From a virus: a DNA stretch of 64,000 nt. This document shows, piece after piece, positions 45-39,509 of the stretch. Each line of letters starts with the position of its first letter. Position 1 is the stretch's first letter. Position numbers and translations under genes: made by a program. Below the pieces are notes generated by a model, which was not told the DNA's origin, searched no databases, and saw only the letters and a program-made list of their open reading frames with translations. The stretch lies in the UHGV virus genome UHGV-1421865; one strand, 5' to 3'.

Positions 45-392
45 TTAGAACAACCATAGAACATCTCTGACATAGTGAACCTCGTGAACTTCGGTAAATT
101 GTACATTGGATGTATTCCAAAGAGACAAATCACAGTTAAAATACTTACAATCGTAGAACATGCCGTGCATATCAGTGACATTACTGACATCCCATCCATC
201 GATTTCAATGTACCTTATATTTTTCCTATAAAATAAGCATTCCATATTATCTATTTCAGATACATCAATGAAATTCAAATCAGCATCCGGACCTTGACGT
301 TCCAGTTCTTGTTCTATGATAGTCTTGAGTTCATCTTTTGTCGATGGTTTAACTATACATGATTTTGTTGTAGATGTGATGTGAATTGCCAT
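45..392 (-). CDS. DUF285-repeat protein (family member, N-module type MAIHITS)
   Basis: N-terminal module MAIHITSTTKS...ELKTIIEQELERQGPDADLNFIDVSEI, followed by WDVSNVT.M.GMF repeats. Confidence 0.6.
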   Translation of the reverse strand: MAIHITSTTKSCIVKPSTKDELKTIIEQELERQGPDADLNFIDVSEIDNMECLFYRKNIRYIEIDGWDVSNVTDMHGMFYDCKYFNCDLSLWNTSNVQFTEVHEVHYVRDVLWLF

Positions 393-413
393 TTGTTCAC
401 TGTTTATACTACA

Positions 414-722
414 TCATTTCTCAAAAACACATTCAATACCGTATGCATCTGCAGCCTGGTGTTCAATCACACAACCACGTGCTTTCTCCCAACCTTTACA
501 AAAGTAAACAAGGTCGGCCTGTGCCATCAATTTCAACGACTCTCCCAAGTACAACAATCCTTTGTTCGGTACGTTAGAATTTTCAAAGTCATTACCAAAG
601 TAGGATTCCAGTACAGTCCAACCTATAGACTCATACCGTTCTTTGACACGATTGCGCACCGCACTGATTTCGATATTAGAAAGACCGTTCATCGGTTGAC
701 TGATAAATACTTTCTTTTTCAT
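414..722 (-). CDS. small DUF4406-like protein (nucleoside deoxyribosyltransferase-like fold), inserted after polymerase fragment
   Basis: 102 aa; MKKKVFISQPMNG... with C-terminal W.K..G...E...A...G pattern typical of DUF4406. Confidence 0.4.
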   Translation of the reverse strand: MKKKVFISQPMNGLSNIEISAVRNRVKERYESIGWTVLESYFGNDFENSNVPNKGLLYLGESLKLMAQADLVYFCKGWEKARGCVIEHQAADAYGIECVFEK

Positions 723-2239
723 TTGTTATTTTTTAATTTAATTAGACTATCGATATACGTAAGTAGTTCAGAATCAATACGTTGACCTGTATACTTAAAC
801 TCGTCGCGTTGCTTTTTCATACGACGCTGCATTTTCTTGAACGTATATTCTTTGTCATTTTTGTACACATTCCCGTTCACCGTAACGAAATAATTCGGAT
901 CTTTTCTGAACTTTTCTAGTTCCTCTTCGTCGAACTTTTCGCCATTTTCGTCGATTACAATGTTGTCGAACGACAGATTACAAGTTTGGATCTGTGACGG
1001 GTAAAGTGACGCGAAGTCATAACACACGTTCCATGTGTAGTGTCCGGAGATGCACTCACAGAAAGCACCTTTGTACGGTTTCTTTTCTCGAACGGTATGA
1101 TCCCAGTTGTATACAATTACTTTATTGTTATCGTAAAACTCATAGAACATGTTCGCATTGGTAATGGCTACCTGTCCGAAAGCATCTTTCAACGTAATCA
1201 TTGTACTGGTCGACATAGAACATGGTACTTCCAGTGACTTCAGTTTTCTATGAATCAGCTGTACCAACAAACTGTCGACAGCATTATAGAAATAATACCA
1301 TTCTACATCACGCTCGTAGAGTTGTTGCAACGAACCGTCGTACTTGATCTTATGTGCGTCGACTGCCCTGGACGATACATAATCCAACGAAAACGACTCG
1401 TACGGTACCAAAATTCTGTCGTACTGTTTACAGATTTCCATATAATCCAACACAACACTATGTTGAGGCGCCGGCAGGCTGTACGACGTACCGTCGAGTT
1501 CTTTCCATGCAATCTTAGTGACTTCCCTTGTCGGTGACGCATTATAGATCATGTTCTTGGCTGTAGTAGCACCGAACAGTCGCTTAATGCGTGTCGTAAG
1601 ATACATCCAGTCGAAACGATATGAATTCCACCCTGCAAGTACCGGTGTATTCGGAACTACCTTATTAAAGAATTCCTCTAACAATTCCTCTTCTGAAGAA
1701 AATGCTTTATAATATACTTTAATATAATCTTCTACTTTCTGTCCCGACTGTTCTACAATCGACATTGCAAATTTGTTGTCGCGGATCCATGAAATATATC
1801 GTTCTTTCAGTAAGTTGATAGACTCCTGCGATAGTCGATGTAGACCGTATACGATACAACTCAAATTATGTCCTACTACAGAGATAGCGGTCACTCGTTG
1901 GTCTGCGACTTCGGGGTCAGGGAACTCGTCCGATACCTCTGTTTCAATATCGAATGTATATAGATTAGGATAATTGTTCTCAAACAACGGAGCGAACTCC
2001 TCCTTGTTATTATAAATGTATTCTAATATATCAAACGTATTAGGGTTGTACTCAGATGTCTTCTTATTTACACGTTTTGCCCTTTGTCCGTCCCAGGTAT
2101 CGTACTCCCCGTCCGGGTCATATTCGTACGACGGCATATAACTAAGGTACTTAGTGATAAAGTCGCGTTTACCTTCTTTTGTAATATATGAAATACTGAG
2201 TTTTTTGTCTCGCTTATTCCAGGTTCTATCTAAGATCAT
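719..2239 (-). CDS. family B DNA polymerase, N-terminal/3'-5' exonuclease part with motif A only (gp43-like fragment)
   Basis: Exo I FDIETEV, Exo II GWNSYRFDWMYL, Exo III YNAVDSLLV, pol motif A DFASLYPS near C-terminus; stops about 90 aa later with no motif B (K...NS.YG) or C (DTD). Confidence 0.75.
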   Translation of the reverse strand: MILDRTWNKRDKKLSISYITKEGKRDFITKYLSYMPSYEYDPDGEYDTWDGQRAKRVNKKTSEYNPNTFDILEYIYNNKEEFAPLFENNYPNLYTFDIETEVSDEFPDPEVADQRVTAISVVGHNLSCIVYGLHRLSQESINLLKERYISWIRDNKFAMSIVEQSGQKVEDYIKVYYKAFSSEEELLEEFFNKVVPNTPVLAGWNSYRFDWMYLTTRIKRLFGATTAKNMIYNASPTREVTKIAWKELDGTSYSLPAPQHSVVLDYMEICKQYDRILVPYESFSLDYVSSRAVDAHKIKYDGSLQQLYERDVEWYYFYNAVDSLLVQLIHRKLKSLEVPCSMSTSTMITLKDAFGQVAITNANMFYEFYDNNKVIVYNWDHTVREKKPYKGAFCECISGHYTWNVCYDFASLYPSQIQTCNLSFDNIVIDENGEKFDEEELEKFRKDPNYFVTVNGNVYKNDKEYTFKKMQRRMKKQRDEFKYTGQRIDSELLTYIDSLIKLKNNK

Positions 2240-2316: not shown

Positions 2317-2766
2317 TTAATGCCTAGTACGAATCTCAAATTGAGGATAGTATTCCTCTGGCATCTTATAACAAGCTGCAAACATTAGAAGCGCTTCAAC
2401 CTTATTGGATATATACCAACCAGACAAATCACAATTAAAGTTTTCACACATATAGAACATATTAGACGTGTCTGTCACATTCGATACATCCCAACTGGAC
2501 AAATCGCAATTAAACTTCCAACAATTACTGAACATGCCGCTCATGTTTCTAACATTAGAGACGTCCCATTCGTCTATTTTGATATTTCGGATGTCAAGTG
2601 AATTAAATAAATTAGACATGTCCGTGATCTTCGATGTGTCGATGAAATTGAGATCTGCATCTAGACCTTGATGATACAGTTCTTGTTCTATCAACGAACG
2701 TAACTCATCTTTCGTCGCAGGTCTCACTACAAGCGATTTCGTCTGAGATGTGATGTGTATTGACAT
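2317..2766 (-). CDS. DUF285-repeat protein (start corrected to internal MSIHITSQTKSL)
   Basis: Track ORF extends 39 codons upstream into the neighbouring gene; family N-module begins at the ATG at 2766. Confidence 0.55.
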   Translation of the reverse strand: MSIHITSQTKSLVVRPATKDELRSLIEQELYHQGLDADLNFIDTSKITDMSNLFNSLDIRNIKIDEWDVSNVRNMSGMFSNCWKFNCDLSSWDVSNVTDTSNMFYMCENFNCDLSGWYISNKVEALLMFAACYKMPEEYYPQFEIRTRH

Positions 2767-3409
2767 GCTGATCAAATTTAGGATAATATTCAGGTAGCAT
2801 CTTAGTATACTTGTCAAACATGAATTTGTTGTGCTGAACGTTCGATGTGTTCCAACCAGACAAGTCTGATTTGAATTTTTCACAACAGTAGAACATCGCA
2901 GACATATCCCTCACATTGGACACATTCCAATAGGACAGGTTACCGTTGAATTTTCTACAATTAAAGAACATGCACCACATACTACGTACATTAGAAACGT
3001 CCCAATAGATCAGGTCGGAATTGAAGATGCCACAATTGTAAAACATGTGTGACATGTTGGTGACATTGGACACATTCCAACTAGACAAGTCGCTGTTGAA
3101 AAATAAACACCAATCAAACATGTGTGACATATCCGTCACTTTCGATACATCCCATTTAGACAGATTACAATCTAAACAGGTACAATGACAGAACATCCAA
3201 GACATGTTTGTCACGTTGCTGACATCCCACTCGTCGATTTTGATGCTTCTGGGATTGAGTAACCAAAATAAATTAGACATGTCTGTAATCAGCGATGTGT
3301 CGATATGGTTCAAGTCAGCATCCCAACCTTGACGTTCCAGTTCTTGTTTTATGACAGAACGTAACTCGGCTTTTGTAGTTGGTCTCACTGTTTTAGTACT
3401 ACCATTCAT
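2705..3409 (-). CDS. DUF285-repeat protein (about 7 repeats)
   Basis: N-module ...ELRSVIKQELERQGWDADLNHIDTSLITDMSNLF, then repeated WDVSNVTNMSxMF units. Confidence 0.6.
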   Translation of the reverse strand: MNGSTKTVRPTTKAELRSVIKQELERQGWDADLNHIDTSLITDMSNLFWLLNPRSIKIDEWDVSNVTNMSWMFCHCTCLDCNLSKWDVSKVTDMSHMFDWCLFFNSDLSSWNVSNVTNMSHMFYNCGIFNSDLIYWDVSNVRSMWCMFFNCRKFNGNLSYWNVSNVRDMSAMFYCCEKFKSDLSGWNTSNVQHNKFMFDKYTKMLPEYYPKFDQHVNTHHISDEIACSETCDER

Positions 3410-3696: not shown

Positions 3697-4210
3697 AGTT
3701 TACAAATGTATAAGGTTGTTCGTTGTGCTCGTCGGCTGGATGTGACTCTCTGAATGTACACTCCCAATCATTGTAGTCGACTTTCGGGAAAAAAGTATCG
3801 GCTTCCAGTGCTACCCCTTCAATGTGTGTCAAACATAGTCTGTCTGCCAGGGGCAATGCCGCTTTGTAGATAGACGCGCCACCGATAATGAATACTCGGT
3901 CGTCATCGTACGCTCCTACTAATGCAGTCTCTAAAGAATGAAACAGATGAGTACCGGGCGGTGCTTCACGGAGCGAACGACTAACCACAAAATTACGACG
4001 ATTAGGAAGAGCACCGTTCGGTAGCGACTCGAAAGTCTTCCGTCCCATAATTACAGTGTGTCCCGAAGTGAGTGTTTTGAAACGTTGTAGATCGCCTCGC
4101 AAATGAAAAAGCATGTGACCTTCGAAGCCGATAGCTCTGTTCTCATCGAGAGCGCAAATTATTGTGATCATATTATATAAATTGAATCCACGATGTCGAT
4201 TTATTGACAT
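3680..4210 (-). CDS. dihydrofolate reductase
   Basis: MITIICALDENRAIGFEGHMLFHLRGDLQRFKTLTSGHTVIMGRKTFESLP matches the DHFR N-terminal signature; 176 aa. Confidence 0.8.
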   Translation of the reverse strand: MSINRHRGFNLYNMITIICALDENRAIGFEGHMLFHLRGDLQRFKTLTSGHTVIMGRKTFESLPNGALPNRRNFVVSRSLREAPPGTHLFHSLETALVGAYDDDRVFIIGGASIYKAALPLADRLCLTHIEGVALEADTFFPKVDYNDWECTFRESHPADEHNEQPYTFVNYARIK

Positions 4211-4719
4211 TATTTTTCAAAAACAATATACGCTATTATAGGAATGACTATGGCGCCTATAAATAATAAAACTAAAGTAGCCAGAACCCAATAAAACTCA
4301 TCTTTACTATCATTGCCTGAATTATGATCTAAGTCAACAAAGTCGGTATACCAACGAGGTAGTTTAACAATGGCATTACAATCACGGAACATGTTTGTCA
4401 TTATCGCAACATTGTTAGTGTCCCAATTGTCTAAACCGGCACCCGTAAACCTATCACAACCGTTGAACATGGATTCCATCGTCTGCACATTGCTAACATT
4501 CCAACTGTCGATTTTGATGTCACGTACATCAAGGCAACAGAACAACCAAGACATGTCGGTGATCTCTGATACGTCAATATGATTCAAATCAGCATCCGGA
4601 CCTTGACGTCGTAGTTCCTGACGTATTAGTTCCTTCAATTCATCTCGTGAAGTAGGCCGCCCGTATGCTGGTTCTGGAACATATAAAGGTCTAGTTTTTG
4701 ACGTGATGTGTAGCGCCAT
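4210..4719 (-). CDS. DUF285-repeat protein with C-terminal transmembrane anchor
   Basis: N-module MALHITSKTRPL..., repeats, then hydrophobic tail YWVLATLVLLFIGAIVIPIIAYIVF. Confidence 0.6.
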   Translation of the reverse strand: MALHITSKTRPLYVPEPAYGRPTSRDELKELIRQELRRQGPDADLNHIDVSEITDMSWLFCCLDVRDIKIDSWNVSNVQTMESMFNGCDRFTGAGLDNWDTNNVAIMTNMFRDCNAIVKLPRWYTDFVDLDHNSGNDSKDEFYWVLATLVLLFIGAIVIPIIAYIVFEK

Positions 4720-5612: not shown

Positions 5613-6371
5613 CTAGAGGCCACAGAGGGATCTCAATACGGTTTTGAATTCACCCGACATATTACATTTGTCACTGAGACACCAGTCGATGTAGCTCGGA
5701 TCGATTTTATGAATTTTTTGTACGTCACAACTCCGATATTTACCGAAATTGAACACCACTGCACCGTCGCGGAATGTCTTCAACGAATTGTCGGTAACGA
5801 TAATCGGTACCATTAAGTTATCGGTTTGCTCTTTTTGTTTATTAAATACTTCAAACGTAGCTTTCACGTCCGAAAGTGCGTCGTGGGCGTTTAGTCCGGA
5901 CTCTTCCATTGAATGGCCTGTGTATTTTTCATAAATACCTTCCAGGTCGGTCGGATTGATTCTGTTGTTAATCAAGAAAGAGTCGAAAATAACACGGTCA
6001 GTGAAATTAATAGACTTACCGTATCGTTTGAGTTCCTCGTTCAAGAATGGAATATCAAAGCTATTGCCATTGAATGTCAATACAGCATTCTCTTTCGGAT
6101 TACCGAAGAATTCAACAATTTGGTCTGCGACTTCTTCAAAATGGGGGTATTGTTCCAATTGTTTCGGTGTGATACCGTGTTTGAAATATGCACCCATACT
6201 AATCTTATAAGGTTGTACAGGTTGGATTTTAAGGTCGAGTTCATCAACTACCTCATTTGTTTTCGCATCGTATTTAATAGCCGAGAACTGGATAATCTGA
6301 TCCGTCTCACGATACAGTCCGGTACATTCAATGTCAAATGCGACGATATACTTGTAATTTTGACTTTTCAT
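5613..6371 (-). CDS. DnaQ-like 3'-5' exonuclease (DEDDh; T4 DexA-like)
   Basis: Exo I VAFDIECTG, Exo III H.A..D (HDALSDV). Confidence 0.7.
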   Translation of the reverse strand: MKSQNYKYIVAFDIECTGLYRETDQIIQFSAIKYDAKTNEVVDELDLKIQPVQPYKISMGAYFKHGITPKQLEQYPHFEEVADQIVEFFGNPKENAVLTFNGNSFDIPFLNEELKRYGKSINFTDRVIFDSFLINNRINPTDLEGIYEKYTGHSMEESGLNAHDALSDVKATFEVFNKQKEQTDNLMVPIIVTDNSLKTFRDGAVVFNFGKYRSCDVQKIHKIDPSYIDWCLSDKCNMSGEFKTVLRSLCGL

Positions 6372-7884: not shown

Positions 7885-10800
7885 ATGGCACGATCGTTAA
7901 TGGATACAATACGACAACGAGGAATTAGAACACCGTCTGGAGAAGAACCCGGATCCGAGGAACGCCCGTCGCTTGTAGACTCTATTATTTCCGGTGCGTT
8001 GGTGTCTTTGTTGTACGGCGTCGACGTATCACCCCGTGATGGAGACGACTTGTCTCGTCAAAGTCAGGCTCTTGGATCGAACAGAAACTCGTTATATAGT
8101 CTTATCGCAGATATTAAACGTACTCTGGAAAGTAGAAATGACGGTACACAACCTACTCTCGTTGAATTCAGTCCTACAACACAGTCTAAAATGGACAACA
8201 TCGTTAGATCGTTAGATAGACTAATTGATATTAAAGGTGTATTAGATACAACGGCTGTAGAATTAGAGTTTATACGTCGACTTTTAGAAAATTCTAATGT
8301 ATTATCTACATTGCCAGATAACAGAAACAGTATACAGCAATTAGATATTGTATTAAGATCCGACGGTAACGGTATAGATAAGTTGGTCGAGCTACTTGAT
8401 AAACTTAAAAATTTTAATATAGACGATGAAACAGCACAAAGACAGATTGTCGGTTTAACAGAAGTAGCTCGTGTTGTAAATACACTGAGTGATGTCAATA
8501 TAAATAGAGACGTACAAAATAATGTAAGTGTACTAAACGACATTATAAAAAACTTATCTAGTATACAAATACCGTCATCCGACACTAAACAAAAACAAAA
8601 CGCTACAGATTTCGGCGAAAGAATAACCAACATCATAAAAGCAATAAATAAGATATTTGAAGATGATACTTTTAAGAACTTAGCTAACAATATAAAGTCT
8701 ATAGAAGAAATTAAACATAAAAACGACCGCGACACTTTCGGTATCGGTATGATCGTCGGCTTCTTGGCATCTTTATCGGCCTTTATCGACAATGCAAATG
8801 TTATATCTAAAAAGAAAGTAAATAAAGGATTTAACAAGGTTTTAGTAAGCATGTCCTCTGAAATAGTAGATTCCCTATCAAAAGTAGCGCATAATATGGG
8901 ATCTGCAAAAAATGACATACTTGTCGTATCAGAAATGTTTTCCGGGTATGCTTCTTTTGTAGATACTGCATTGAAAATATCAGATAGATCGTTAGTATCG
9001 TTGTTATTGTTACATGTTAAATTAAAACTATCGTCGTCTGTATTTAATAAGGCATTTCTGGAACTTGTAACGTCTATAAAAGACATATCTATACAAATGG
9101 GTACTATCAGTGCCGTTACTAGAAGTGACTATAGACAACAAATCAATAACATTAAAGAAACATATTCGCAATTTAACGATACTATAGAAGCAATCGGTGA
9201 CGTTATTAGTATACGGTCGATGATAAAGACGATGCTGAAGTTGAAAGCGGCTAAGGGTACTGTCGACAGTGTTAATAAACTACTTACAGAAATGTTCACT
9301 GTTAGTATACCCCCGCGGGATGCTATGCAAGATCGTTTAGACTATTATATAGAACTCGCAACCGGTCTAAAACTAGTATTCGACGAATTACGACTAGTCA
9401 ACGACGCGGGTATCGGTAGACTCGACAAGTCCATAAAGAACCTCGTCGGTGCCGTTAAAGGACTAGATGCACTTGATAAAGTCGTCGGTAAGAAGACGGG
9501 TAAGAATGTAGGTCGTTTCATCCGAGGTTTCATGCACACCTTGTCTACTATCGACGAAAATGCCATCAATAATGCAGAGGAAACAAGTAAGACCTTCGCG
9601 TTGGTCGTCGGTGTCGCAGTCGGTGCATTACTCGTCGTTAGTGCAGCGTCCCTACTAATATCTTGGAAAGCTGTAGTAATGTTCGCTGCGGCGTTACCGT
9701 TGTTTATCTTAGGTGTATCGAAAGCGGCAGCGAAGATGAGCGGTCTTGATATTGACGACAGATCTATGAGTGCTTTTACTGATTTTGTTCTATCGTCTAC
9801 AATAGCGATGGCAGTCGGTAGTTTCTTGATGCGTTTTGTCCAACTTACCGACCTTACAATGTTCGTAGGAGGACTTATTGCTATGACAATCGGTGTCGGT
9901 ACGGCATATCGTATTATCTCCGCTATAGCAAATGCAGATACTATAAAGAATGTTGAAGCATTCAACCAGATGGTCTTGATGTCTGGTACAGTATTAGTTA
10001 TAGGTTCTTATATAACACAATATACCAATAAAGACGGTATATATAAGTTCCTCGGTATGCTCGGTGGCTTTACAGCCGGCGTCTCGTTAATCTATTTAGG
10101 ACTAGCAAAGATACTTAAAGACGACGTACTCAATGTATCAGAGCAATTTGTTGTGTTAGTCGCTGTATCAGGTGCTATTATGTTCGCCGGTGCATTGGTA
10201 TCTAAACTAATCGACCCCGTCGGTCTTATAACATTCACTGCATCGTTAGGTGCATTCTTGTTCGCCGTCAGCGGTATCTACATATTGCTGTCGAAGAAGA
10301 TTGGTAAGGAAGCCGTACAGATCGGTCGTGATTTCATGGTCTTGTTAGTCGTCTCGGGTGCTATCTTATTAGGCGCCGGTATGTTAATGCCTCTTGTTAA
10401 TAAAGAAGGTCTTATAACATTTACTGTGACACTCGGACTGTTCCTCTTAGGGGTCGGACTTGTATATAAGATAATGGGGTCTGTAGTCGACGACGCATTA
10501 AAGCACGCTCGTGACTTTACTATCCTCATCGCAGTGTCCGGTGCTGTACTCTTAGCCGGTGGTGCTATATTAGAAGCAATGGGTCCGAAAGGTATCGCAC
10601 ATGTTATACTGTTCGGTGTACTGTTATTCGGTTTTGTATACGGACTAACATGGATATACAAGAAGAATGCTAAAGATATAACCACTGCATTCGGTGTAGC
10701 GACAGGTCTTGCATTGTTAGTTGCTGTGTCCGGTGCTGTACTGTTAGCCGGTGGTGCTATACTTGAATTGATGGGCAAAGAAGGTGCCTGGTATACCGTC

Positions 10801-13800
10801 TTGTTCGGTGTCATGCTACTGGGCTTTGTCGCTGCACTAACATGGATATATAAGAAGAACGCTACAGATATTGCGATGTCGATACCGACGGCACTAGCAC
10901 TAGGTATACTCGTTGCTATTTCGGGTGCTGTACTACTGGCAGGGGGCAAAGTCATTGCCGATAACAAAGACATGTGGTGGGCAGTTCCTGAATTTGCGGC
11001 GATAACGGTGTTGTTCGTCGGCGGCATGTCGACTGTAATGTACTTATTAAGTCAAATAAAGGGTAATCTAGTCCAAGGTGGTTTAGCGATGTTGGCTATC
11101 GCAGGCATCACATGGTTGATGGGTAAAGCCCTCCAAGAGGTTGCCCTGGTTGCTCGTATCGCATCCGTCGATGAGGTAAAGCAAGTAATGTTGATAGGGG
11201 GTGTCCTAATTACGGGTGTGACGGCTATCGCCGCTGCATTGGGCGCTATCATAACAAGCGGTGTCGGAGCACTACTGTTGGGGGCCGGTGCCGCCGCACT
11301 TGCTGGTGTAATCGGCTTTGTATTCGCTATCAGTGAAATGGTGCGAAATGTCGTAGTGACAGCTACAATACTAAACAATGCACCTGAAATAGACTTTGAT
11401 AAGGTAAATGGTCTCGTCACCGGTATGTTCGGCATCGCTAAAAATATGGTAGAGGCGGCACCGTGGACGCTGATGGTGAAAGCAAAACTTGTGAGTAGTA
11501 CCATAATGGATCTTATCGGATCACTGGGTACTGTTGCTCAAGTAGTAAAAGACTTGGCAGACTTGAAGATTCCTATATATAACGGTACTAAATTATCCGG
11601 TTATATTACAATAGGCGACGAAACATTCGCTACTGTTGCCTCTAATATAGAAAAAATAATAACGGCGGTAACACGACCGCTTGTCGATACGATAAAAAAG
11701 AACCCAGATCTGTTCGGCACAGGTGATTTCTTCTCGAACCCATTTGTCGATACACCGGCTGTAGCCGCTGCGAAGATGGTAGGACATGTCGGTAATTCGT
11801 TAAGTAAGGTGGCACAGGGTGTTAAAGACTTAGCCGAACTTAAGATTCCTGTATATAACGGTACTACATTAACTAAGTATGTTACATTAGGCAACGAGAC
11901 GTTCAGTAAGGTCTCTACAAACGTAAAGAGTCTTATACTGGCAGTAGCTCGTCCGATTGTGTCGACTATTAAAGACAATCCAGATCTATTCAAAGAAGGT
12001 GCATTCAACGACAGTCCGGCTGTGAATGCGGCGAAAGCCGTCGGTGAAATAGGAAAAACGTTGACGCCGTTGGCACAGGGTGTTCAGTTCTGGTCGATGT
12101 TGAAGGTACCCGTTTACGAAGGTGAAAAGATAAAAGAATACATCACATTAGGAGACGATCAATTTGCACAGGTTGCTATAAATATAAAACGTGTAATCGA
12201 AGCTGTTGGCGGCGCACTTGTCACCACAGTAAAAAACAGTACGTTTATATTCGGTAGCTGGAACGGTGGTCTGATTAGTTCAGATGCACCAGCGTTGAAT
12301 GCGTCCAAGTCTATCTTACTGATTTCCAATTCGTTATCTCCAATAGCACAATGTCTGGCATATTATGCGTCTGGTAAATTCCCTATTATAACAGGATATG
12401 ATGCTCATGGCAAACCGATAATCGACTTGTCGACTACGATAACACAGGACACGATGAAGGTTGCACAACAGAACATCAAAGACGTTCTCACAGCTATATT
12501 AGATGTATTAAAAGACGTACAAGGCGATTTCGGAGGCGACTGGTTCGGTAGCGGTTCGGATGTAGAAAGAGCAAGTAAGGCTGTTACAGAAGTAGCGAAT
12601 TCGTTAAAGACAATGGTCGACGTCGTCGGTAATATGAGTAAAACGGACTTTGCAACTGTTAATGCTCAAGTAAATACGACACAGAAAAACATCAAGAGTC
12701 TATTAGAAGGTGTTGTTAGTATATTCACATTATTTAATAGTACAGCTAAAGATGCCGAGGGTAAAGACATGACAAACGGTTGGTTGAGTCGTATTTGGAA
12801 TGGTAAGAATAAGACAATAGAACAATTCTTAAACGACACTGCCGGTGATATTAAGTCGGCTATTGGTGGTATAGTAGATGCTTCTAAGGAAATAAGTAAG
12901 TTATTTACTGAAATAAGTGATCTTCAAAAGACAATTACCGATAACCAGAATTCAGTTACTAGCTTTATTAAACAAACACCTGTTGAGAAGGGTAGTAAAG
13001 AGATGCAATATGTTATTGTCAAGAACATAGGTAATATACTGTCTACGTTCACTGCGATAGTTAGTAGTATAGACAAAGAAGAACTCTCAAGCAACGCTTC
13101 GGATATTAAAACGATTGCTAAAGACGTTGATACATTCACCGACGGGTTCGGAGATATTCTAAAGTCACTTACCAAGGCGATGCAGTCGACCAATAGTTTT
13201 GTGAGTGCCGATCGCAGTGCGTTGGGTAACTTACAAGCGGTATTAAATGAATACAAGAACAGTATGTTGAAAATGGTAACTGTATTTAAGGGTATCGGAT
13301 CTGTTTCGATGCGAGATATTGCAGACACCACAATGTACCAGGACAGAGCGTTTAATCTACTTATAAGAACAGCACAGAACGCTTCGAACGCCGGAGGTAA
13401 CGGTTATTCTATCCTCGCGAAGGGTATTCTCGAGATTGCTGAAGCCGAAGCACAGCTTGGTCAGAACCAGACATTCGCTCAGCACGCCGCTGTCATGGAA
13501 CGGTATGTACAGACTATCAATGCGGTGAAGGTCGGCAACTTAGACAGGCTGAACAGTTTCGCTATCAGCTTAAACAACCTGGCAGAAAAGTTAGGAAATG
13601 TCGATAAACTCACTCATGCGTTAGCTGTGCATTTGACCGGTGTTCTTAATAGACTGGTTAAGGAAATAGAACGTGCCGAAAAGACCATCAATAACGCCGA
13701 TAAGATGCAGGTTCGTCGCTTCGATATGATCAAGAAATCTGTTAAGGACGTACAAAAGATTATGGACAAGAAGCTCGTTGTAGAAGTGAACCAAGGCATG

Positions 13801-14022
13801 GCTGGCGATGCCACATTAGAAGGCGGGGGTGTAGACTACGGTGGTACATCTAATTCAAGCACGACGATGAACGTTTCGGCGCCGTCCGGTTCTAGCACCG
13901 ACACTACTCCTACCACTAATAAAGCAAATAAAAAGAACGGTAGTATAGGTCTTACAGAACTCAACGAAGCACTCAGTGCAAACAACGACGTACTTGTTCG
14001 TAAATTAAAAGGTCGAAAATAG
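7885..14022 (+). CDS. giant 2045-aa membrane-spanning virion protein (tape-measure or ejection-protein candidate)
   Basis: Single 6.1 kb ORF; coiled-coil-like N-terminal third; at least 10 hydrophobic helices with 4 repeats of SGA.LLAGGAILE.MG...LFGV.L.GFV..LTWIYKKNA.DI; three repeats of about 85 aa KDLADLKIPIYNGT... Confidence 0.5.
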   Translation: MARSLMDTIRQRGIRTPSGEEPGSEERPSLVDSIISGALVSLLYGVDVSPRDGDDLSRQSQALGSNRNSLYSLIADIKRTLESRNDGTQPTLVEFSPTTQSKMDNIVRSLDRLIDIKGVLDTTAVELEFIRRLLENSNVLSTLPDNRNSIQQLDIVLRSDGNGIDKLVELLDKLKNFNIDDETAQRQIVGLTEVARVVNTLSDVNINRDVQNNVSVLNDIIKNLSSIQIPSSDTKQKQNATDFGERITNIIKAINKIFEDDTFKNLANNIKSIEEIKHKNDRDTFGIGMIVGFLASLSAFIDNANVISKKKVNKGFNKVLVSMSSEIVDSLSKVAHNMGSAKNDILVVSEMFSGYASFVDTALKISDRSLVSLLLLHVKLKLSSSVFNKAFLELVTSIKDISIQMGTISAVTRSDYRQQINNIKETYSQFNDTIEAIGDVISIRSMIKTMLKLKAAKGTVDSVNKLLTEMFTVSIPPRDAMQDRLDYYIELATGLKLVFDELRLVNDAGIGRLDKSIKNLVGAVKGLDALDKVVGKKTGKNVGRFIRGFMHTLSTIDENAINNAEETSKTFALVVGVAVGALLVVSAASLLISWKAVVMFAAALPLFILGVSKAAAKMSGLDIDDRSMSAFTDFVLSSTIAMAVGSFLMRFVQLTDLTMFVGGLIAMTIGVGTAYRIISAIANADTIKNVEAFNQMVLMSGTVLVIGSYITQYTNKDGIYKFLGMLGGFTAGVSLIYLGLAKILKDDVLNVSEQFVVLVAVSGAIMFAGALVSKLIDPVGLITFTASLGAFLFAVSGIYILLSKKIGKEAVQIGRDFMVLLVVSGAILLGAGMLMPLVNKEGLITFTVTLGLFLLGVGLVYKIMGSVVDDALKHARDFTILIAVSGAVLLAGGAILEAMGPKGIAHVILFGVLLFGFVYGLTWIYKKNAKDITTAFGVATGLALLVAVSGAVLLAGGAILELMGKEGAWYTVLFGVMLLGFVAALTWIYKKNATDIAMSIPTALALGILVAISGAVLLAGGKVIADNKDMWWAVPEFAAITVLFVGGMSTVMYLLSQIKGNLVQGGLAMLAIAGITWLMGKALQEVALVARIASVDEVKQVMLIGGVLITGVTAIAAALGAIITSGVGALLLGAGAAALAGVIGFVFAISEMVRNVVVTATILNNAPEIDFDKVNGLVTGMFGIAKNMVEAAPWTLMVKAKLVSSTIMDLIGSLGTVAQVVKDLADLKIPIYNGTKLSGYITIGDETFATVASNIEKIITAVTRPLVDTIKKNPDLFGTGDFFSNPFVDTPAVAAAKMVGHVGNSLSKVAQGVKDLAELKIPVYNGTTLTKYVTLGNETFSKVSTNVKSLILAVARPIVSTIKDNPDLFKEGAFNDSPAVNAAKAVGEIGKTLTPLAQGVQFWSMLKVPVYEGEKIKEYITLGDDQFAQVAINIKRVIEAVGGALVTTVKNSTFIFGSWNGGLISSDAPALNASKSILLISNSLSPIAQCLAYYASGKFPIITGYDAHGKPIIDLSTTITQDTMKVAQQNIKDVLTAILDVLKDVQGDFGGDWFGSGSDVERASKAVTEVANSLKTMVDVVGNMSKTDFATVNAQVNTTQKNIKSLLEGVVSIFTLFNSTAKDAEGKDMTNGWLSRIWNGKNKTIEQFLNDTAGDIKSAIGGIVDASKEISKLFTEISDLQKTITDNQNSVTSFIKQTPVEKGSKEMQYVIVKNIGNILSTFTAIVSSIDKEELSSNASDIKTIAKDVDTFTDGFGDILKSLTKAMQSTNSFVSADRSALGNLQAVLNEYKNSMLKMVTVFKGIGSVSMRDIADTTMYQDRAFNLLIRTAQNASNAGGNGYSILAKGILEIAEAEAQLGQNQTFAQHAAVMERYVQTINAVKVGNLDRLNSFAISLNNLAEKLGNVDKLTHALAVHLTGVLNRLVKEIERAEKTINNADKMQVRRFDMIKKSVKDVQKIMDKKLVVEVNQGMAGDATLEGGGVDYGGTSNSSTTMNVSAPSGSSTDTTPTTNKANKKNGSIGLTELNEALSANNDVLVRKLKGRK

Positions 14023-15627: not shown

Positions 15628-16893
15628 ATGGATATTATTGAAATGTTTGCGGGTGTTGGTGGTTTTAGAGTTGGCTTTGAACGTGTGAATGAAAATCATA
15701 AAGAAGAGCCGAAGTTCTTTAACACAATATGGAGTAATCAATTTGAACCTTCAACAAAAATACAACACGCTTCACGTACATACCAACGAGTTTTTGGCCA
15801 AGACGGTCATTTTAATCAAGATATTGCAACAGTGAAAAGTGATGATATTCCTATTCACGATATGTTGGTCGGTGGTTTTCCTTGTCAGGATTATAGTGTT
15901 GCACGTGTGCTTAGTCAAGCATCGGGTATTGAAGGAAAGAGTGGTGTATTATGGTGGCAAATTGTTAGAATTATTAAAGATAAAGGAGACAAAGGTCCAA
16001 AGATTTTGTTTTTGGAGAATGTAGACAGACTACTAAGTTCTCCTGCCAAACAACGAGGCCGTGATTTTGCCATTATTTTAGAATCATTGAATGATTTAGG
16101 TTATATTGTCGAATGGAGAATAATTAATGCAGCTGAATATGGTATGCCTCAACGAAGAAAACGTACCTACATTCTTGCATACAAGAAAGGAACAACAATT
16201 GCAAAAAAAATAAAAGAACCAACAGAATGGCTGTTTAATGATGGAGTATTTGCAAAAGCCTTTCCTGTTAGTGATTACTGTGAAGAAACACCAATTGTTG
16301 GTATTCCTTTGAAAAGTAACCCTAATTGGGACTTGGTCGATTTATCACAAGAATTCAATAATGGTGGAAAGAAAACGCCATTTCTAAATGCAGGGTTGAT
16401 GATTGATGGTGTCTTTTACACATACAAGACAAACCCATCATATAATGGAAAATTCACATTCTTAGGGGACATTCTTGTAAGTGGTAAAGATAGAGAATTA
16501 ATTACAGAGGATTTTTATATTTCAGAAAATGAGTTACCCAAGTGGAAATACTTAAAAGGTTCAAAACGTGAAATTCGTAAAACGAAAGATGGTAATGAAT
16601 TTACTTACACAGAGGGAGCAATGGTTTTTCCTGACCCACTTGATAAGGCATCAAGAACTATTATAACATCTGAAGGTGGTAAGACACCATCTCGTTTCAA
16701 ACACGTCATTAAAGACCCAATAAACGGAAGATATAGAAGACTTGTTCCATTAGAACTTGAACGATTAGATATGTTTCCTGACAATCACACAGAAGGAGAA
16801 AACGACGTAAAACGAGCATTCTTTATGGGCAATGCGCTTGTTTGTGGTGTAATCACAAAAGTTGGTGAAGAAATACGGAAAAGATTGATATGA
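15628..16893 (+). CDS. DNA (cytosine-5)-methyltransferase
   Basis: Motif I FAGVGGF, motif IV GGFPCQDYS, motif VI LFLENVDRLL, motif VIII QRRKRTYI, motif X FFMGNALV; low GC. Confidence 0.85.
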   Translation: MDIIEMFAGVGGFRVGFERVNENHKEEPKFFNTIWSNQFEPSTKIQHASRTYQRVFGQDGHFNQDIATVKSDDIPIHDMLVGGFPCQDYSVARVLSQASGIEGKSGVLWWQIVRIIKDKGDKGPKILFLENVDRLLSSPAKQRGRDFAIILESLNDLGYIVEWRIINAAEYGMPQRRKRTYILAYKKGTTIAKKIKEPTEWLFNDGVFAKAFPVSDYCEETPIVGIPLKSNPNWDLVDLSQEFNNGGKKTPFLNAGLMIDGVFYTYKTNPSYNGKFTFLGDILVSGKDRELITEDFYISENELPKWKYLKGSKREIRKTKDGNEFTYTEGAMVFPDPLDKASRTIITSEGGKTPSRFKHVIKDPINGRYRRLVPLELERLDMFPDNHTEGENDVKRAFFMGNALVCGVITKVGEEIRKRLI

Positions 16894-17845: not shown

Positions 17846-18958
17846 TTAATACAGTTCTATACGTAGACCTAACTTATTGGCTTTTAACATCTTAGATGAT
17901 GTAGAGTTTATATCACCCGTGAAGAGTACTTTCGCGTCTGACCAACTGTTTGTTTGAACGTACTGTGGATTCTTCTCCAGAAATTCTTTCTTAGACGCAT
18001 ATTTAGACGGACTACCCGTCAACATCACAGGCACTTGTGTAGTCTTGCTTGTACCGACGTGTAAGTTTGTAAGTTGACACATACCAATGCCGTAGTCAGT
18101 AAGTGCGTTAACCAACGCATTGAATTGCAACCATTTAGGTGATTGGTGATTATAGACCCAACTGTACCCTTCCGATGCGACACCACTGAAATCGGCTTGT
18201 CCAGTACCGATGAACTGCGCACATTTCTTAGCGCATGTGGAACCACATTTGTTGAAATTCAACGACTTGATGATGTCTACTAATGTGATTTGTCGTCGGT
18301 AATTCTTAAACGATTCGGCGGCTTTCTGCCCTCGTTTACCTTTCAACGCTTGTTCTATCTGTTCCGGTCTTACTTGGAGTATATTTGTTAAACTCTCGAA
18401 GTTATGTTGTAAAGTGTCGTACAACGCAGCCGCTACAGACGGACCGATGTTAGGTATCTTCAGAGTTTGTGCAGACGCGATGAACTGCCCACGGTTACTC
18501 ACAAGACCCACCAGATGACAACCTTCTACAACAGCATCATTTGGTAAACTACCGAGGTCCTTTGATGGATTGTCAAGTACAGAATAAAGAAACGGAATAA
18601 TGTCACCGGCTAAGGAAACTTCAATCTCCGTACCTATACCTACTTGATTATCAATAAGATAGCCGTAGTTATGTCCAGAACATTTAGTGACTATTTTATC
18701 AAGTAGTACAACAGGTTCAAAGACAATCACCGGTGTATACTCTCCGGTCTTACCTTGGTTCCATACAATATCTACTACCTTCGTCTTTTGAATTTCCGGA
18801 ACAAATTTCACAGCAACGCAGTCCGACGGTCGAACTTTATCGGTATTCTGTTCTCTGACAGGGAGTATAGGCTTGATAACAAACCCGTCCAGAGCATATT
18901 CACACTCTTCGGTACGGTATTTGTTAAAGTCGTTATATAGTTCTTGTAAGGTACTCAT
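17846..18958 (-). CDS. NAD-dependent DNA ligase, C-terminal polypeptide (NTase motifs IV-V, OB, HhH and BRCT-like regions)
   Basis: Begins inside adenylation domain: LDGFVIKP (motif IV), VAVKF (motif V); start ATG overlaps stop of upstream TS-like gene (TAATG). Confidence 0.7.
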   Translation of the reverse strand: MSTLQELYNDFNKYRTEECEYALDGFVIKPILPVREQNTDKVRPSDCVAVKFVPEIQKTKVVDIVWNQGKTGEYTPVIVFEPVVLLDKIVTKCSGHNYGYLIDNQVGIGTEIEVSLAGDIIPFLYSVLDNPSKDLGSLPNDAVVEGCHLVGLVSNRGQFIASAQTLKIPNIGPSVAAALYDTLQHNFESLTNILQVRPEQIEQALKGKRGQKAAESFKNYRRQITLVDIIKSLNFNKCGSTCAKKCAQFIGTGQADFSGVASEGYSWVYNHQSPKWLQFNALVNALTDYGIGMCQLTNLHVGTSKTTQVPVMLTGSPSKYASKKEFLEKNPQYVQTNSWSDAKVLFTGDINSTSSKMLKANKLGLRIELY

Positions 18959-19926
18959 TATACTGCGATAGGTGCTTTAATAACAGGGGGTGTATAAGAA
19001 CCGTCGAAATGTTTCTTTACCTTTATCTGTCGGCTTTCGTACATCTCCAAAATATAACACAAATAAGCGTCTAAGGACATCGGTACATTCACAGTAGACA
19101 TGGTCATATCCAAGGTGCATTCTACGGTATGATAACATTGCGTCACATAGTCATCGGTATTAGTAAAGAACGAATCGATATATTCCTGTACAGCATCTTT
19201 ATGATTGTCGTAGATATGGAAATTATCGGCGGTATAGTATATATTTCCGCATTTTACTTTATCGATACCATATTTCTTTTTGAACCATTCATGGTTGACC
19301 TTAAAATAGCCGTTTATAAACCAGTTGAACCAAGAACAGAATATGAAATTATACGGCGCACCCAAGAACGCGTCGTTACTGCGAATATGAGCATGTAGGT
19401 TGTGTGTAAGTACTGTATTCCCAGCGTCGTCTGTGTCCAACTGAAATGTAACGTTATATTCGAACATACAAGGTGCCAGTGCCATTTCCGGTAGGTCGTT
19501 CACATTCCAAAGTGAGATAATATGTCGGCGCGAGAATAAATTGTTATTGAAACCTTCAAATAGTTGTTTCAACTGATCAATACCGTTAAAGTTTCGAAAC
19601 TGATAACCGTACGCCTTACCGATAGTACCATCTTCCTGTACCCATTCATCCCAATAGGTAACACCGTGGTCGCGAAGCCACTGTACGTCGGTCCGTCCTT
19701 GCAGCATCCAGAGTAGTTCGGTGAGTGCCATTCGAGGATAAACACGTTTTCCGTTCACCACCATCAGTCGAACTTCGTCGGACGGTGAAGGAGACTGTTC
19801 AAATACAAAGTTGATACCGTAAGAGTTCAACGTACTGATGTCGGTTCTATTCGACATTTTCTGTGTGACAGTCGACAATATGTTAGTAAGCTGTCTTACA
19901 TAGTCTGTTTCAAATAGTTGTGTCAT
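18958..19926 (-). CDS. thymidylate synthase family enzyme (ThyA or dUMP-hydroxymethylase-like) with about 100-aa C-terminal extension
   Basis: LTELLWMLQGRTDV, RRHIISLWNVNDL, MALAPCM (catalytic Cys), PYN (Asn, uracil-specific); 322 aa versus about 260 typical. Confidence 0.75.
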   Translation of the reverse strand: MTQLFETDYVRQLTNILSTVTQKMSNRTDISTLNSYGINFVFEQSPSPSDEVRLMVVNGKRVYPRMALTELLWMLQGRTDVQWLRDHGVTYWDEWVQEDGTIGKAYGYQFRNFNGIDQLKQLFEGFNNNLFSRRHIISLWNVNDLPEMALAPCMFEYNVTFQLDTDDAGNTVLTHNLHAHIRSNDAFLGAPYNFIFCSWFNWFINGYFKVNHEWFKKKYGIDKVKCGNIYYTADNFHIYDNHKDAVQEYIDSFFTNTDDYVTQCYHTVECTLDMTMSTVNVPMSLDAYLCYILEMYESRQIKVKKHFDGSYTPPVIKAPIAV

Positions 19927-20602
19927 TGTTTAATGGATATTCTAGTTTATAAAATTTAGGTGTCTTGGGAAGTCCGTACCATTCTCGTTCTGTCCACTTA
20001 CCGTTTTCTAATACTCTATAATCGTATATGATAATGTCTAAATCATCGTCGTATTCGTGAGATGTACTATTCAAGACACCCGATACCATCGAACGAGGAC
20101 TCGAGAACTTATCTTTGTATTTCTCTTCAAATGTCTTCAGTTTTACCAGCACCTCACCACGTATAACTGCCTGTGCACCATATACATAGTAGTCTGGATA
20201 AACCGATCGAATTTGCTTAATAAGGTGGCTACGCAAGTCTTTACCGTAATTCCCGTCGCCCCGAGACGATATGCTGCCAACAGTACCGTTCGCATTGATA
20301 ACACATTCGAAAGAACAACCGTCGAATTTCGGGGTCACTTCTATGGCATTATCACCGACATATTTTTTAATATCTTCTGTATAATTAGAAAAATCATCTA
20401 AGCTATGAACTTGGACCTTGTAGAGGGATCCCATTATAAACGGATGCCGTACAGTATATGTTGTACTGGATTTAGTACCGATATAAGACTTGTTCTCGAG
20501 ACCTAGCTCTTTCTCTAACGCGTCAAATTCTGTGTCAGACATTATCTCCTGCCCATTGTAGTATGCTTCTTTTGCTTTATGGTATAATTCTTCTTTTGTC
20601 AT
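19910..20602 (-). CDS. NAD-dependent DNA ligase, N-terminal polypeptide (domain Ia plus NTase motif I)
   Basis: YYNGQEIMSDTEFDALEKEL (domain Ia), HPFIMGSL, KxDG lysine motif TPKFDGCSF; ends 17 nt after start of TS-like gene. Confidence 0.7.
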   Translation of the reverse strand: MTKEELYHKAKEAYYNGQEIMSDTEFDALEKELGLENKSYIGTKSSTTYTVRHPFIMGSLYKVQVHSLDDFSNYTEDIKKYVGDNAIEVTPKFDGCSFECVINANGTVGSISSRGDGNYGKDLRSHLIKQIRSVYPDYYVYGAQAVIRGEVLVKLKTFEEKYKDKFSSPRSMVSGVLNSTSHEYDDDLDIIIYDYRVLENGKWTEREWYGLPKTPKFYKLEYPLNNDTTI

Positions 20603-36628: not shown

Positions 36629-36906
36629 ACTTTACTTCTATTGTGCCGTCTGTGATCATAAAACATGTTGTGTAGGTATCTTACGCTACTAGTGTCCCAT
36701 TTATCTATTTTGATGTTACCGACACAAAGACCTTCGAATAAGTAAGACATGTCTGTGATCTTAGATGTGTCGATAAAGTTCAAATCGGCATCGGGACCTT
36801 GAAGTTCCAACTCATGTTTTATAAGAATCTTCAATGCTAATTTTGACGTCGGTCTAGGTCTATACAGCTTTGTAGATGAAGTGATGTGTATTGCCATATA
36901 AATCAA
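36625..36906 (-). CDS. short DUF285-family protein (N-module plus one repeat)
   Basis: MIYMAIHITSSTKLY...DADLNFIDTSKITDMSYLF...WDTSSV. Confidence 0.5.
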   Translation of the reverse strand: MIYMAIHITSSTKLYRPRPTSKLALKILIKHELELQGPDADLNFIDTSKITDMSYLFEGLCVGNIKIDKWDTSSVRYLHNMFYDHRRHNRSKV

Positions 36907-37343
36907 ATAATAGGTCTATTATTAGGTTCTAATTTATGTGCACCAAAGAACATTCCTGCTTTAGATCTTAATTTAGAAAGATTCCAGTTTGATAGATCAC
37001 AATTGAATTCACTACAGTTACGGAACATTTGGTGTGTATCTTCCAGATTCGATACGTCCCATCTTGAGATGTTACTATTGAAATGTCGACAATCGTGAAA
37101 CATATAGCGCATGTTTTTCACATTAGAGACATCCCAGTATTCGATTTTGATGTTTCTGATTTGAAGATTTTCAAATAAATAACACATGTCTGTCATCTCT
37201 GATGTGTCGATAAAGTTCAAATCAGCATCCGGACCTTGACGTTCAATTTCTTGTAATATAAGCGCCTTTAATGTATATCGTGATAATACTTTAACTTTGT
37301 ATAGTTTTGAAGATGACGTAATATGTAGTGCCATATAAATCAA
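36903..37343 (-). CDS. DUF285-repeat protein
   Basis: MIYMALHITSSSKLY...; C-terminal HKLEPNNRPII identical to next gene; 50-bp junction repeat. Confidence 0.6.
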   Translation of the reverse strand: MIYMALHITSSSKLYKVKVLSRYTLKALILQEIERQGPDADLNFIDTSEMTDMCYLFENLQIRNIKIEYWDVSNVKNMRYMFHDCRHFNSNISRWDVSNLEDTHQMFRNCSEFNCDLSNWNLSKLRSKAGMFFGAHKLEPNNRPII

Positions 37344-38870: not shown

Positions 38871-38883
38871 AGTTGTATTTTTT

Positions 38884-39489: not shown

Positions 39490-39509
39490 AATAATAACAA
39501 TTATAAGAA

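What the first reader, a model, noticed from the sequence alone, without database searches (positions are those of the whole stretch)
45..2239. Family B DNA polymerase gene ends after motif A; a DUF4406-like gene and a DUF285 gene occupy the position where motifs B and C should be
ORF 719..2239 has Exo I (FDIET), Exo II (GWNSYRFDWMYL), Exo III (YNAVD) and polymerase motif A (DFASLYPS at about residue 415, as in T4 gp43). It stops about 90 aa later with no motif B (K...NS.YG) or motif C (DTD). Immediately downstream on the same strand lie a 102-aa DUF4406-like ORF and a DUF285 gene, not the rest of a polymerase. This resembles the split gene 43 (43A/43B) of some T4-like phages. The C-terminal half must lie beyond the window start or elsewhere.
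Basis: partly seen in the sequence, partly recalled or inferred. Interest (0 to 1): 0.65.

Follow-up and report, generated by a model that had tools for sequence, protein, structure and literature searches.

The report
Split phage DNA polymerase, N-terminal half
This gene is a working N-terminal piece of a T4-type DNA polymerase in a ~222-kb phage from human mouth metagenomes; it is a known kind of split gene, but I could not find the matching C-terminal piece in the ~100 kb of the genome I could read.

Summary
Window 719..2239 (-) encodes a 506-aa family B polymerase fragment with Exo I, II and III, motif A and the first fingers helix. It ends at a TGA that overlaps the ATG of a DUF4406 gene. 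A DUF285 gene follows.

It is not an artefact or a pseudogene:
- The identical protein is on 9 independent contigs.
- A strain 93% identical in DNA has the same 506-aa ORF, with dN/dS 0.02.
- More than 100 related protein clusters are also about 510 aa.

The end point aligns with the ends of Aeromonas phage 25 gp43A, Sphingomonas phage PAU gp105, Chryseobacterium phage MA9V-1 ORF135 and Tenacibaculum phage PTm1 ORF236. Each of those has a separate gene for the C-terminal part. The break lies at the tip of the fingers domain.

Relatives show every arrangement:
- an unsplit gene of about 929 aa;
- halves separated by DUF7487 genes;
- C-half before N-half;
- halves more than 8 kb apart;
- an extra split at motif C by an intein.

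The C-half of this phage was not found. A profile search of the window plus about 36 kb of flanking contig (about 100 kb of a ~222-kb circular map) was negative, so it lies at least 18.6 kb downstream.

Verdict: a new member of a known kind, of moderate interest.

The parts
719..2239 (-). N-terminal half of a split family B (T4 gp43-like) DNA polymerase, 506 aa. It holds the N-terminal domain, the 3'-5' exonuclease, palm motif A and the first fingers helix.
   Evidence: Pfam DNA_pol_B_exo1 and DNA_pol_B positions 18-135 of 453. phmmer against RB69 gp43: residues 88-481 align with 105-485, E 1e-33. dN/dS 0.02 against a related strain. The identical protein is on 9 contigs.
1937..1954 (-). Exo I motif FDIETE (residues 96-101)
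   Evidence: D97, I98 and E99 are invariant in the 13-sequence alignment A3.
1598..1633 (-). Exo II motif GWNSYRFDWMYL (residues 203-214)
   Evidence: N205, F209 and D210 are invariant in A3.
1271..1288 (-). Exo III motif YNAVDS (residues 318-323)
   Evidence: Y318, N319 and D322 are invariant in A3.
995..1018 (-). Polymerase motif A DFASLYPS (residues 408-415)
   Evidence: D408, S411, L412, Y413 and P414 are invariant in A3. It aligns with RB69 DLTSLYPS.
722..826 (-). First fingers helix and C-terminal tail (residues 472-506). R478 and K482 correspond to RB69 R482 and K486. The protein ends here, at the fingers tip.
   Evidence: RB69 alignment. R478 and K482 are invariant in A3. The end coincides with the ends of gp43A, gp105, ORF135 and ORF236. 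The AlphaFold model has helices at 468-480 and 488-505, at low confidence.
719..722 (-). ATGA junction: the TGA stop of the polymerase half overlaps the ATG of the DUF4406 gene.
414..722 (-). DUF4406 gene (102 aa), directly downstream of the polymerase half. It is a conserved neighbour in this phage species only.
   Evidence: Pfam PF14359, 31.8 bits. 93% identical copy at the same place in the related strain L015. Absent from all other loci.
45..392 (-). DUF285 gene (115 aa), the first of a run of four DUF285 genes that varies between strains.
   Evidence: Pfam PF03382, 56.4 bits. The run continues beyond the window in L004 and L153 and is absent from the related strain L015.

Best explanation
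Window 719..2239 (-) is the intact, expressed N-terminal subunit gene of a two-piece family B replicative DNA polymerase. It belongs to a ~222-kb jumbo phage found in human oral metagenomes.

The gene is cut at the tip of the fingers domain. The N-half carries the exonuclease site, the palm motif A aspartate and the first fingers helix, with the equivalents of RB69 R482 and K486. A second polypeptide of about 410-420 aa should carry the second fingers helix (motif B), motif C and the thumb. It must be encoded elsewhere in the genome and should bind the N-half non-covalently to rebuild the active site, as reported for gp43A and gp43B of Aeromonas phage 25.

The split probably began with a mobile gene inserted into the fingers-tip coding region. 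Related phages still carry DUF7487 genes exactly at that point. Later rearrangement and accessory-gene insertions then moved the halves apart.

Shown: the truncated ORF is real, conserved and under strong purifying selection; its break point matches known split polymerases; no C-half lies within about 100 kb.
Inferred: the C-half exists in the unread ~123 kb; the halves associate; the origin was a mobile-gene insertion.
For: 1. The ORF is real and selected.
- The identical 506-aa protein is on 9 contigs from different samples.
- A strain with 93% DNA identity has the same 506-aa ORF, with 89 synonymous and 9 non-synonymous changes, dN/dS 0.02, and no amino-acid change after residue 429.

2. 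Catalytic motifs are intact and invariant in relatives.

3. The break point is shared.
- The ends align with Aeromonas 25 gp43A, PAU gp105, MA9V-1 ORF135 and PTm1 ORF236.
- Each of those phages has a separate C-terminal gene 1-4 genes away.

4. The family has both parts.
- The 120 best matches to the N-half are mostly proteins of 506-518 aa.
- 609 matches to the C-half were found; most of the 120 listed are stand-alone proteins of about 412-420 aa with PF00136.
- In one relative both halves are on one contig with three genes between them.

5. Arrangements in relatives.
- 42 loci have an unsplit ORF; the five I translated are 926-929 aa.
- Halves separated by a DUF7487 gene exactly at the break: L035, L079, L222.
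- C-half before N-half: L076, L094.
- 19 loci have no N-half within 8 kb or more on either side of the C-half.

6. Function of a split enzyme. The review PMC2988022 states that gp43A and gp43B of phage 25 co-purify and have polymerase activity.

7. Alternatives at the junction fail.
- Read-through adds only 9 codons.
- No intron family was found.
- There is no polymerase-like sequence in any frame downstream.
Against: - The C-half of this phage was not found. A profile HMM of C-halves, run with filters off, gave nothing at E <= 1 beyond short chance matches in the window, L004, L015, L017, L153 and L155. These cover about 100 kb of a ~222.5-kb map.
- Scans of JGI metagenome contigs, IMG/VR and GTDB genomes with the same alignment did not return this genome.
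- The nearest candidate, P0241, comes from a different phage. That phage carries its own one-piece ligase, about 50% identical to the one in the window.
- Many relatives have an unsplit gene, so the split is not a fixed trait of the clade.
- The AlphaFold model of the N-half is only moderate: mean pLDDT 63, and low in the palm and fingers.
Confidence: 0.85

Rival explanations
1. The N-half works alone, for example as a proofreading exonuclease or an accessory factor. The phage has lost the C-half and replicates with another polymerase.
For: No C-half was found in about 100 kb, nor in three collection scans.
Against: - Motif A and the fingers residues R478 and K482 are invariant, and the last 77 residues show no amino-acid change between strains. 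These residues have no role in exonuclease activity alone.
- The phage already has a separate DnaQ/RNase T-type exonuclease at 5613..6371.
- No other DNA polymerase was seen among the genes examined in the window or the annotated flanks.
- About 123 kb of the genome remains unread.
- Relatives that I could check have a C-half.
Confidence: 0.08
2. The two parts are joined after transcription or translation, by a split intein or by a trans-spliced or very long intron, to give one polypeptide.
For: Relatives do use inteins in this gene. P0060 and PTm1 ORF239/241 have an intein at motif C, broken by an endonuclease gene.
Against: - In those relatives the intein sits after DTD of motif C, not at the fingers tip.
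- This protein ends with ordinary extein sequence (...IDSLIKLKNNK) aligned with the ends of intein-free N-halves. It has no Hint or intein match in Pfam.
- Stand-alone C-halves in relatives begin with a conserved Met (M-E-F-S...) and no C-intein.
- Rfam found no group I or II intron in the window or in L153.
Confidence: 0.03
3. The truncation is an assembly or sequencing error, or a recent pseudogene.
For: None beyond the truncation itself.
Against: - The same ORF is found in 9 contigs and in a cluster of 43 sequences.
- dN/dS is 0.02.
- The same end point occurs in cultured phages.
- Downstream DNA holds no polymerase remnant in any frame.
Confidence: 0.02

Closest known systems
Split gene 43 (43A/43B) of Aeromonas phages 25 and 44RR (T4-like)
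   Same: Both are family B polymerases cut at the same aligned position at the fingers tip. gp43A is 498 aa and this protein is 506 aa. The N-piece carries the exonuclease, motif A and the first fingers helix. The two pieces are reported to co-purify and to be active (PMC2988022).
   Different: In phage 25 the halves are separated by one homing endonuclease gene. In 44RR they are separated only by an untranslated spacer. Here the C-half is at least 18.6 kb away, and the gene directly after the break is a DUF4406 gene, not a recognisable endonuclease. Sequence identity to RB69-type polymerases is low (E 1e-33).
Two-gene polymerases of jumbo phages PAU (gp105 + gp110), MA9V-1 (ORF135 + ORF138) and PTm1 (ORF236 + 239 + 241)
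   Same: These are the closest cultured relatives by tblastn, at 28-30% identity over 91-98% of the query. They share the break point, and other genes lie between the halves.
   Different: Their halves are 2-4 genes apart on the same strand. PTm1 has a further intein-associated split. This phage comes from human oral metagenomes, belongs to a separate uncultured clade and has distant halves.
Uncultured gut, rumen and oral jumbo-phage clade (for example P0002, P0060, P0112; contigs up to 473 kb)
   Same: N-halves are 55-59% identical to this one and of the same length. The clade holds split and distant arrangements like this one.
   Different: This phage and its 98% variant P0001 form an outgroup to the rest. 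GC is 38% here against 24-36% in most relatives. 42 related loci keep an unsplit gene.
Archaeal split PolB (Methanothermobacter two-gene PolB; Nanoarchaeum equitans split-intein PolB). Recalled from my own knowledge, not tested here.
   Same: A family B polymerase encoded by two widely separated genes.
   Different: The lineage and break points differ. N. equitans joins its halves by protein trans-splicing, for which there is no sign here.

Membership tests
Family B DNA polymerase (T4/RB69 gp43 type) | 3'-5' exonuclease motifs Exo I, II and III | tested here: met
   FDIETE, GWNSYRFDWMYL and YNAVDS are present. Pfam DNA_pol_B_exo1 E 2.6e-15. Aligned with RB69.
Family B DNA polymerase (T4/RB69 gp43 type) | Palm motif A (D..SLYPS) | tested here: met
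   DFASLYPS at residues 408-415 aligns with RB69 DLTSLYPS.
Family B DNA polymerase (T4/RB69 gp43 type) | Motif B (K...NS.YG), motif C (DTD) and thumb in the same polypeptide | tested here: not met
   The Pfam DNA_pol_B match stops at profile position 135 of 453. No motif B or C lies in the ORF, and the window holds only one isolated loose motif B match at 41718-41747 with no polymerase similarity. This ORF is therefore a fragment, or subunit, of the family and not a complete member.
Split gp43A/gp43B-type polymerase | The N-terminal ORF ends at the fingers tip, at the same position as gp43A | tested here: met
   MAFFT alignment with Aeromonas 25 gp43A, PAU gp105, MA9V-1 ORF135 and PTm1 ORF236. 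RB69 numbering.
Split gp43A/gp43B-type polymerase | A separate ORF in the same genome encodes motif B, motif C and the thumb | tested here: inconclusive
   Absent from about 100 kb of the ~222-kb map. The other ~123 kb could not be read with the tools.
Split gp43A/gp43B-type polymerase | The two polypeptides associate and polymerise DNA | not testable with these tools
   Known only for phage 25, as cited in PMC2988022.
Split-intein ('fractured') polymerase gene | An N-intein (Hint) segment at the C-terminus of the N-piece | tested here: not met
   No intein family in Pfam. The tail aligns with extein sequence. Relatives' inteins lie at motif C.
DUF4406 (PF14359) | Pfam score above the gathering cut-off | tested here: met
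   31.8 bits against a cut-off of 22, covering profile positions 1-90 of 91.
DUF285 (PF03382) | Pfam score above the gathering cut-off | tested here: met
   56.4 bits against a cut-off of 25 for ORF 45..392.

The most novel reading that the evidence does not exclude
In this oral jumbo phage, essential replication enzymes are broken up again and again by ordinary metabolic or accessory genes rather than by homing endonucleases. The polymerase is followed at the break by a DUF4406 gene, and the NAD-dependent ligase is split by a thymidylate synthase gene. The polymerase halves have drifted so far apart (at least 18.6 kb) that the enzyme behaves as a true two-subunit polymerase with independently placed, and perhaps independently regulated, genes. 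The clade holds unsplit, split, reordered and intein-split forms, so it would be a natural series for studying how a single-chain polymerase becomes multi-subunit.
Probability: 0.3. Interest if true: 0.5.

Novelty: new member of a known kind. Interest (0 to 1): 0.33.

Why it matters
Split family B polymerases are already known in T4-like Aeromonas phages, in PAU-like and PTm1-like jumbo phages, and in some archaea. This case therefore adds a member, not a principle. Its value is comparative. It belongs to a large uncultured clade of gut, rumen and oral jumbo phages in which the same polymerase occurs unsplit, split at the fingers tip with DUF7487 genes in the gap, with the halves in reverse order, with the halves far apart, or further split by an intein at motif C. 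That range could show how a permissive surface loop lets a replicative enzyme be divided, and whether DUF7487 proteins are the mobile agents responsible. For annotation, polymerase genes of about 510 aa in such phages should not be called pseudogenes.

Tried and rejected
1. Searches for the C-half in the window and flanks. All were negative.
- Motif regular expressions in six frames.
- tblastn with the C-halves of PAU, MA9V-1 and PTm1.
- tblastn with the C-terminal parts of the 55%-related phage L009.
- hmmsearch with filters off, using the C-half profile A2, on the window, L004, L015 and L017 and on L153 and L155.
- Weak tblastn hits near 40170-40430 turned out to be a calcineurin-like phosphoesterase.

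2. Searches for the C-half in public data.
- A protein search with a spliced C-half from L009.
- A representative search with alignment A1.
- Cluster look-ups.
- A protein search with P0241.
P0241 looked promising: 46-52% identical to the family and locus GC 39%. I rejected it for three reasons. It comes from other samples (ERZ28613921, ERR2245444, ERR2241630), none of which is among those that yielded this phage's contigs. It has relatives at 57-81% identity that have no counterpart among the N-halves. Its locus L012 carries a one-piece ligase about 50% identical to the one in the window.

3. Collection scans with alignment A2 of JGI metagenome contigs, IMG/VR and GTDB genomes. None returned DNA matching this phage. 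A JGI-sourced protein included in A2 (P0435) was also not returned, so that collection seems incomplete for this purpose.

4. Walking along the contig. Ids obtained through cluster look-ups allowed one step on each side. No C-half was found.

5. The phage collection has no close genome (megablast). IMG/VR has no close N-half.

6. The AlphaFold model of the N-half has mean pLDDT 63, too low for a fold search.

7. Read-through or a changed genetic code at the TGA was rejected. An intron was rejected.
Full report
**1. The observation**

Window 719..2239 on the minus strand is a 506-aa ORF. Pfam finds the family B exonuclease domain (E 2.6e-15). It also finds the polymerase domain, but only profile positions 18-135 of 453.

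Motif positions are Exo I FDIETE at residues 96-101, Exo II GWNSYRFDWMYL at 203-214, Exo III YNAVDS at 318-323 and motif A DFASLYPS at 408-415. The protein ends 91 residues later.

A six-frame search of the whole window found no motif C and no strict motif B. The loose motif B pattern gave one isolated match at 41718-41747 (-), with no polymerase similarity around it.

The stop is TGA at 719-721 and overlaps the ATG of the next gene (ATGA). That gene, 414..722, matches DUF4406. The following gene, 45..392, matches DUF285. Reading through the TGA adds nine codons. All three stop codons end long ORFs in the window, so the standard code is in use.

**2. A real gene, not an artefact**

- The identical 506-aa protein is encoded on nine contigs from different samples. 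Its 90% cluster has 43 sequences.
- A related strain on a 207-kb scaffold (L015) is 93% identical in DNA across the gene and has the same 506-aa frame. Of 98 differences, 89 are synonymous, giving dN/dS 0.02. No amino acid changes after residue 429.
- The exonuclease carboxylates, the motif A residues, and R478 and K482 are invariant in an alignment with twelve relatives.

**3. Where the break lies**

phmmer against solved structures aligns residues 88-481 with RB69 gp43 residues 105-485 (E 1e-33). R478 and K482 therefore correspond to RB69 R482 and K486. From my own knowledge of the RB69 structures, these lie on the first long fingers helix and contact the incoming nucleotide. The protein then ends at about RB69 residue 510, the tip of the fingers, before the second helix that carries motif B.

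In a MAFFT alignment, the ends of this protein, its relatives P0002 and P0112, PAU gp105, MA9V-1 ORF135, PTm1 ORF236 and Aeromonas phage 25 gp43A fall within a few columns of each other.

**4. What known relatives do**

The best matches among sequenced phages are jumbo phages: PAU, MA9V-1 and MA9V-2, PTm1, PTm5 and pT24, the Lak megaphages and other huge uncultured phages, at 25-33% identity.

- In PAU the polymerase is gp105 (N) and gp110 (C), with four genes between. One of those four, gp109, was proposed to be the sliding clamp (PMC4889955).
- In MA9V-1 it is ORF135 and ORF138.
- In PTm1 it is ORF236, then ORF239 (annotated as an intein-containing split polymerase precursor), a VSR endonuclease gene, then ORF241.
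- In Aeromonas phage 25, gp43A (498 aa) and gp43B flank a homing endonuclease gene. The review PMC2988022 reports that the two products co-purify and have polymerase activity, and that phage 44RR has only an untranslated spacer between the halves.

**5. The uncultured clade**

A protein search with the N-half returned 1124 hits. The best 120 are mostly 506-518 aa and 54-59% identical. This phage plus its 98% variant P0001 forms an outgroup to the rest, which are at least 65% identical to one another.

Three hits of about 776 aa (P0026, P0035, P0060) continue through motif B and motif C (YSDTD) into an N-intein. In locus L009 the gene order is:
- this 776-aa gene;
- a 420-aa gene;
- a 324-aa gene that begins with a C-intein ending in HN and continues SVYTTYG... 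into the thumb.

A spliced C-half from that locus found 609 proteins. Most of the 120 listed are stand-alone, 412-420 aa, carry PF00136 and start with a conserved M-E-F-S.

I examined 128 loci from JGI metagenomes, IMG/VR and GTDB genomes:
- 42 have one uninterrupted ORF. The five I translated are 926-929 aa.
- Four (L035, L044, L045, L079) have about 1.1 kb inserted exactly at the break. The inserts I scanned, in L035 and L079, encode DUF7487 proteins.
- Three (L110, L111, L132) have a 1.3-1.7 kb gap and a C-terminal piece that starts only near motif C.
- Two have the C-half directly upstream of the N-half.
- 19 have no N-half within 8 kb or more on either side of the C-half.
- The remaining loci had flanks too short to classify.

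In one relative, P0020 (N) and P0203 (C) sit on one contig with three genes between them. Two of the three are DUF7487 genes.

The split is therefore common but not universal in the clade. The gap at the break is repeatedly occupied by genes of one uncharacterised family.

**6. This phage's genome and the search for its C-half**

Contigs carrying the window's proteins come from human oral metagenomes (PRJEB6997) and other samples.

The 187,286-bp contig NODE_12 of ERZ772909 ends at window position 20,890 and begins at window position 56,141. This implies a circular or circularly permuted map of about 222.5 kb. Assemblies of 205-223 kb carry proteins of the same 90% clusters.

By look-ups I read 18.6 kb downstream of the polymerase half and 19.5 kb beyond the right end of the window.

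Downstream of the N-half lie, in order:
- the DUF4406 gene;
- four DUF285 genes;
- a hexapeptide-repeat protein;
- 16 tRNA genes;
- a TnpB-like gene in two pieces;
- small ORFs;
- large genes on the opposite strand.

The related strain lacks the DUF285 run and the TnpB gene but keeps the DUF4406 gene.

A profile HMM of 23 C-halves, run without filters on every open frame of 25 codons or more, found nothing credible anywhere in these ~100 kb. The C-half must therefore lie in the unread ~123 kb. That is at least 18.6 kb downstream or 79.5 kb upstream of the N-half.

Attempts to find it in protein and contig collections failed. The protein lists show only the best 120 hits, and this phage is an outgroup that ranks below them. 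The contig collections did not contain this genome. The candidate P0241 belongs to a different, related phage.

**7. Mechanism**

The most likely reading is a two-subunit polymerase. The N-half supplies the exonuclease, motif A and the first fingers helix. A separately encoded C-half supplies motif B, motif C and the thumb. The two assemble without covalent joining.

Three points support this:
- The break is in a surface loop between two antiparallel helices, a place where chain continuity is least needed.
- Relatives tolerate any gene order and any distance between the halves.
- The phage 25 enzyme is reported active.

Splicing is unlikely. The tail is ordinary extein sequence, stand-alone C-halves begin with their own Met and lack a C-intein, and no intron family was detected.

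Origin by insertion of a mobile gene is an inference from the DUF7487 genes at the break in relatives and the endonuclease gene in phage 25.

**8. Verdict**

It is a new member of a known kind of split gene. Its context is of some evolutionary interest. One gap remains: the partner gene was not located.

Noticed in passing
window 17846-20602 (-): The NAD-dependent DNA ligase is also split. A 230-aa adenylation-domain ORF (19910..20602) and a 370-aa OB-fold ORF (17846..18958) are separated by a complete thymidylate synthase gene (18958..19926), with overlapping gene ends. A related phage (L012) has a single 619-aa ligase.
   Followed up: partly
window 45-392, 2317-3409, 4210-4719, 36903-40052, 56415-56903, 57907-58467, 60241-60612: DUF285 genes are greatly expanded, with at least 13 copies in the window, including a tandem run of six at 36.9-40.1 kb. 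The run next to the polymerase half is present in one strain and absent in another.
   Followed up: partly
L153 4840-10817 (downstream of the window start; ENA ERZ772909 NODE_12): Sixteen tRNA genes lie 3-9 kb downstream of the polymerase half, around a TnpB (IS605 OrfB) gene called in two pieces (284 + 93 aa). The window itself has no tRNA gene.
   Followed up: no
window 7885-14022 (+): A 2045-aa ORF has no Pfam match. The related strain has a 2255-aa version at the same place.
   Followed up: no
L035 2826-3977; L079 2123-3127; L222 5568-6635 and 7261-8421; L147 12845-13897 and 18717-20156: Genes of the uncharacterised family DUF7487 sit exactly between the polymerase halves, or directly next to the N-half, in several related phages. 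This suggests a mobile, possibly endonuclease-like, element that targets this site.
   Followed up: partly
L009 10001-14554: A related rumen phage has a different split. A 776-aa gene runs through motif C into an N-intein, a 420-aa gene follows, and a 324-aa gene then starts with the C-intein. This is the same layout as PTm1 ORF239/240/241.
   Followed up: partly
L076 1401-4174; L094 1-2699: In two related metagenome contigs the C-half gene lies directly upstream of the N-half gene, so the order of the two parts is reversed.
   Followed up: no
window 20890 and 56141 (ends of contig NODE_12): The 187-kb contig ends at window 20,890 and starts at window 56,141. The genome map therefore closes at about 222.5 kb. 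Contigs of 205-223 kb from many samples carry proteins of the same 90% clusters.
   Followed up: partly
window 15628-16893 (+), 24136-25998 (-), 35270-36628 (-), 5613-6371 (-): Other replication and DNA-modification genes in the window: a C5 cytosine methyltransferase, type II topoisomerase B-like and A-like subunits encoded 9 kb apart, and a DnaQ/RNase T-type exonuclease.
   Followed up: no
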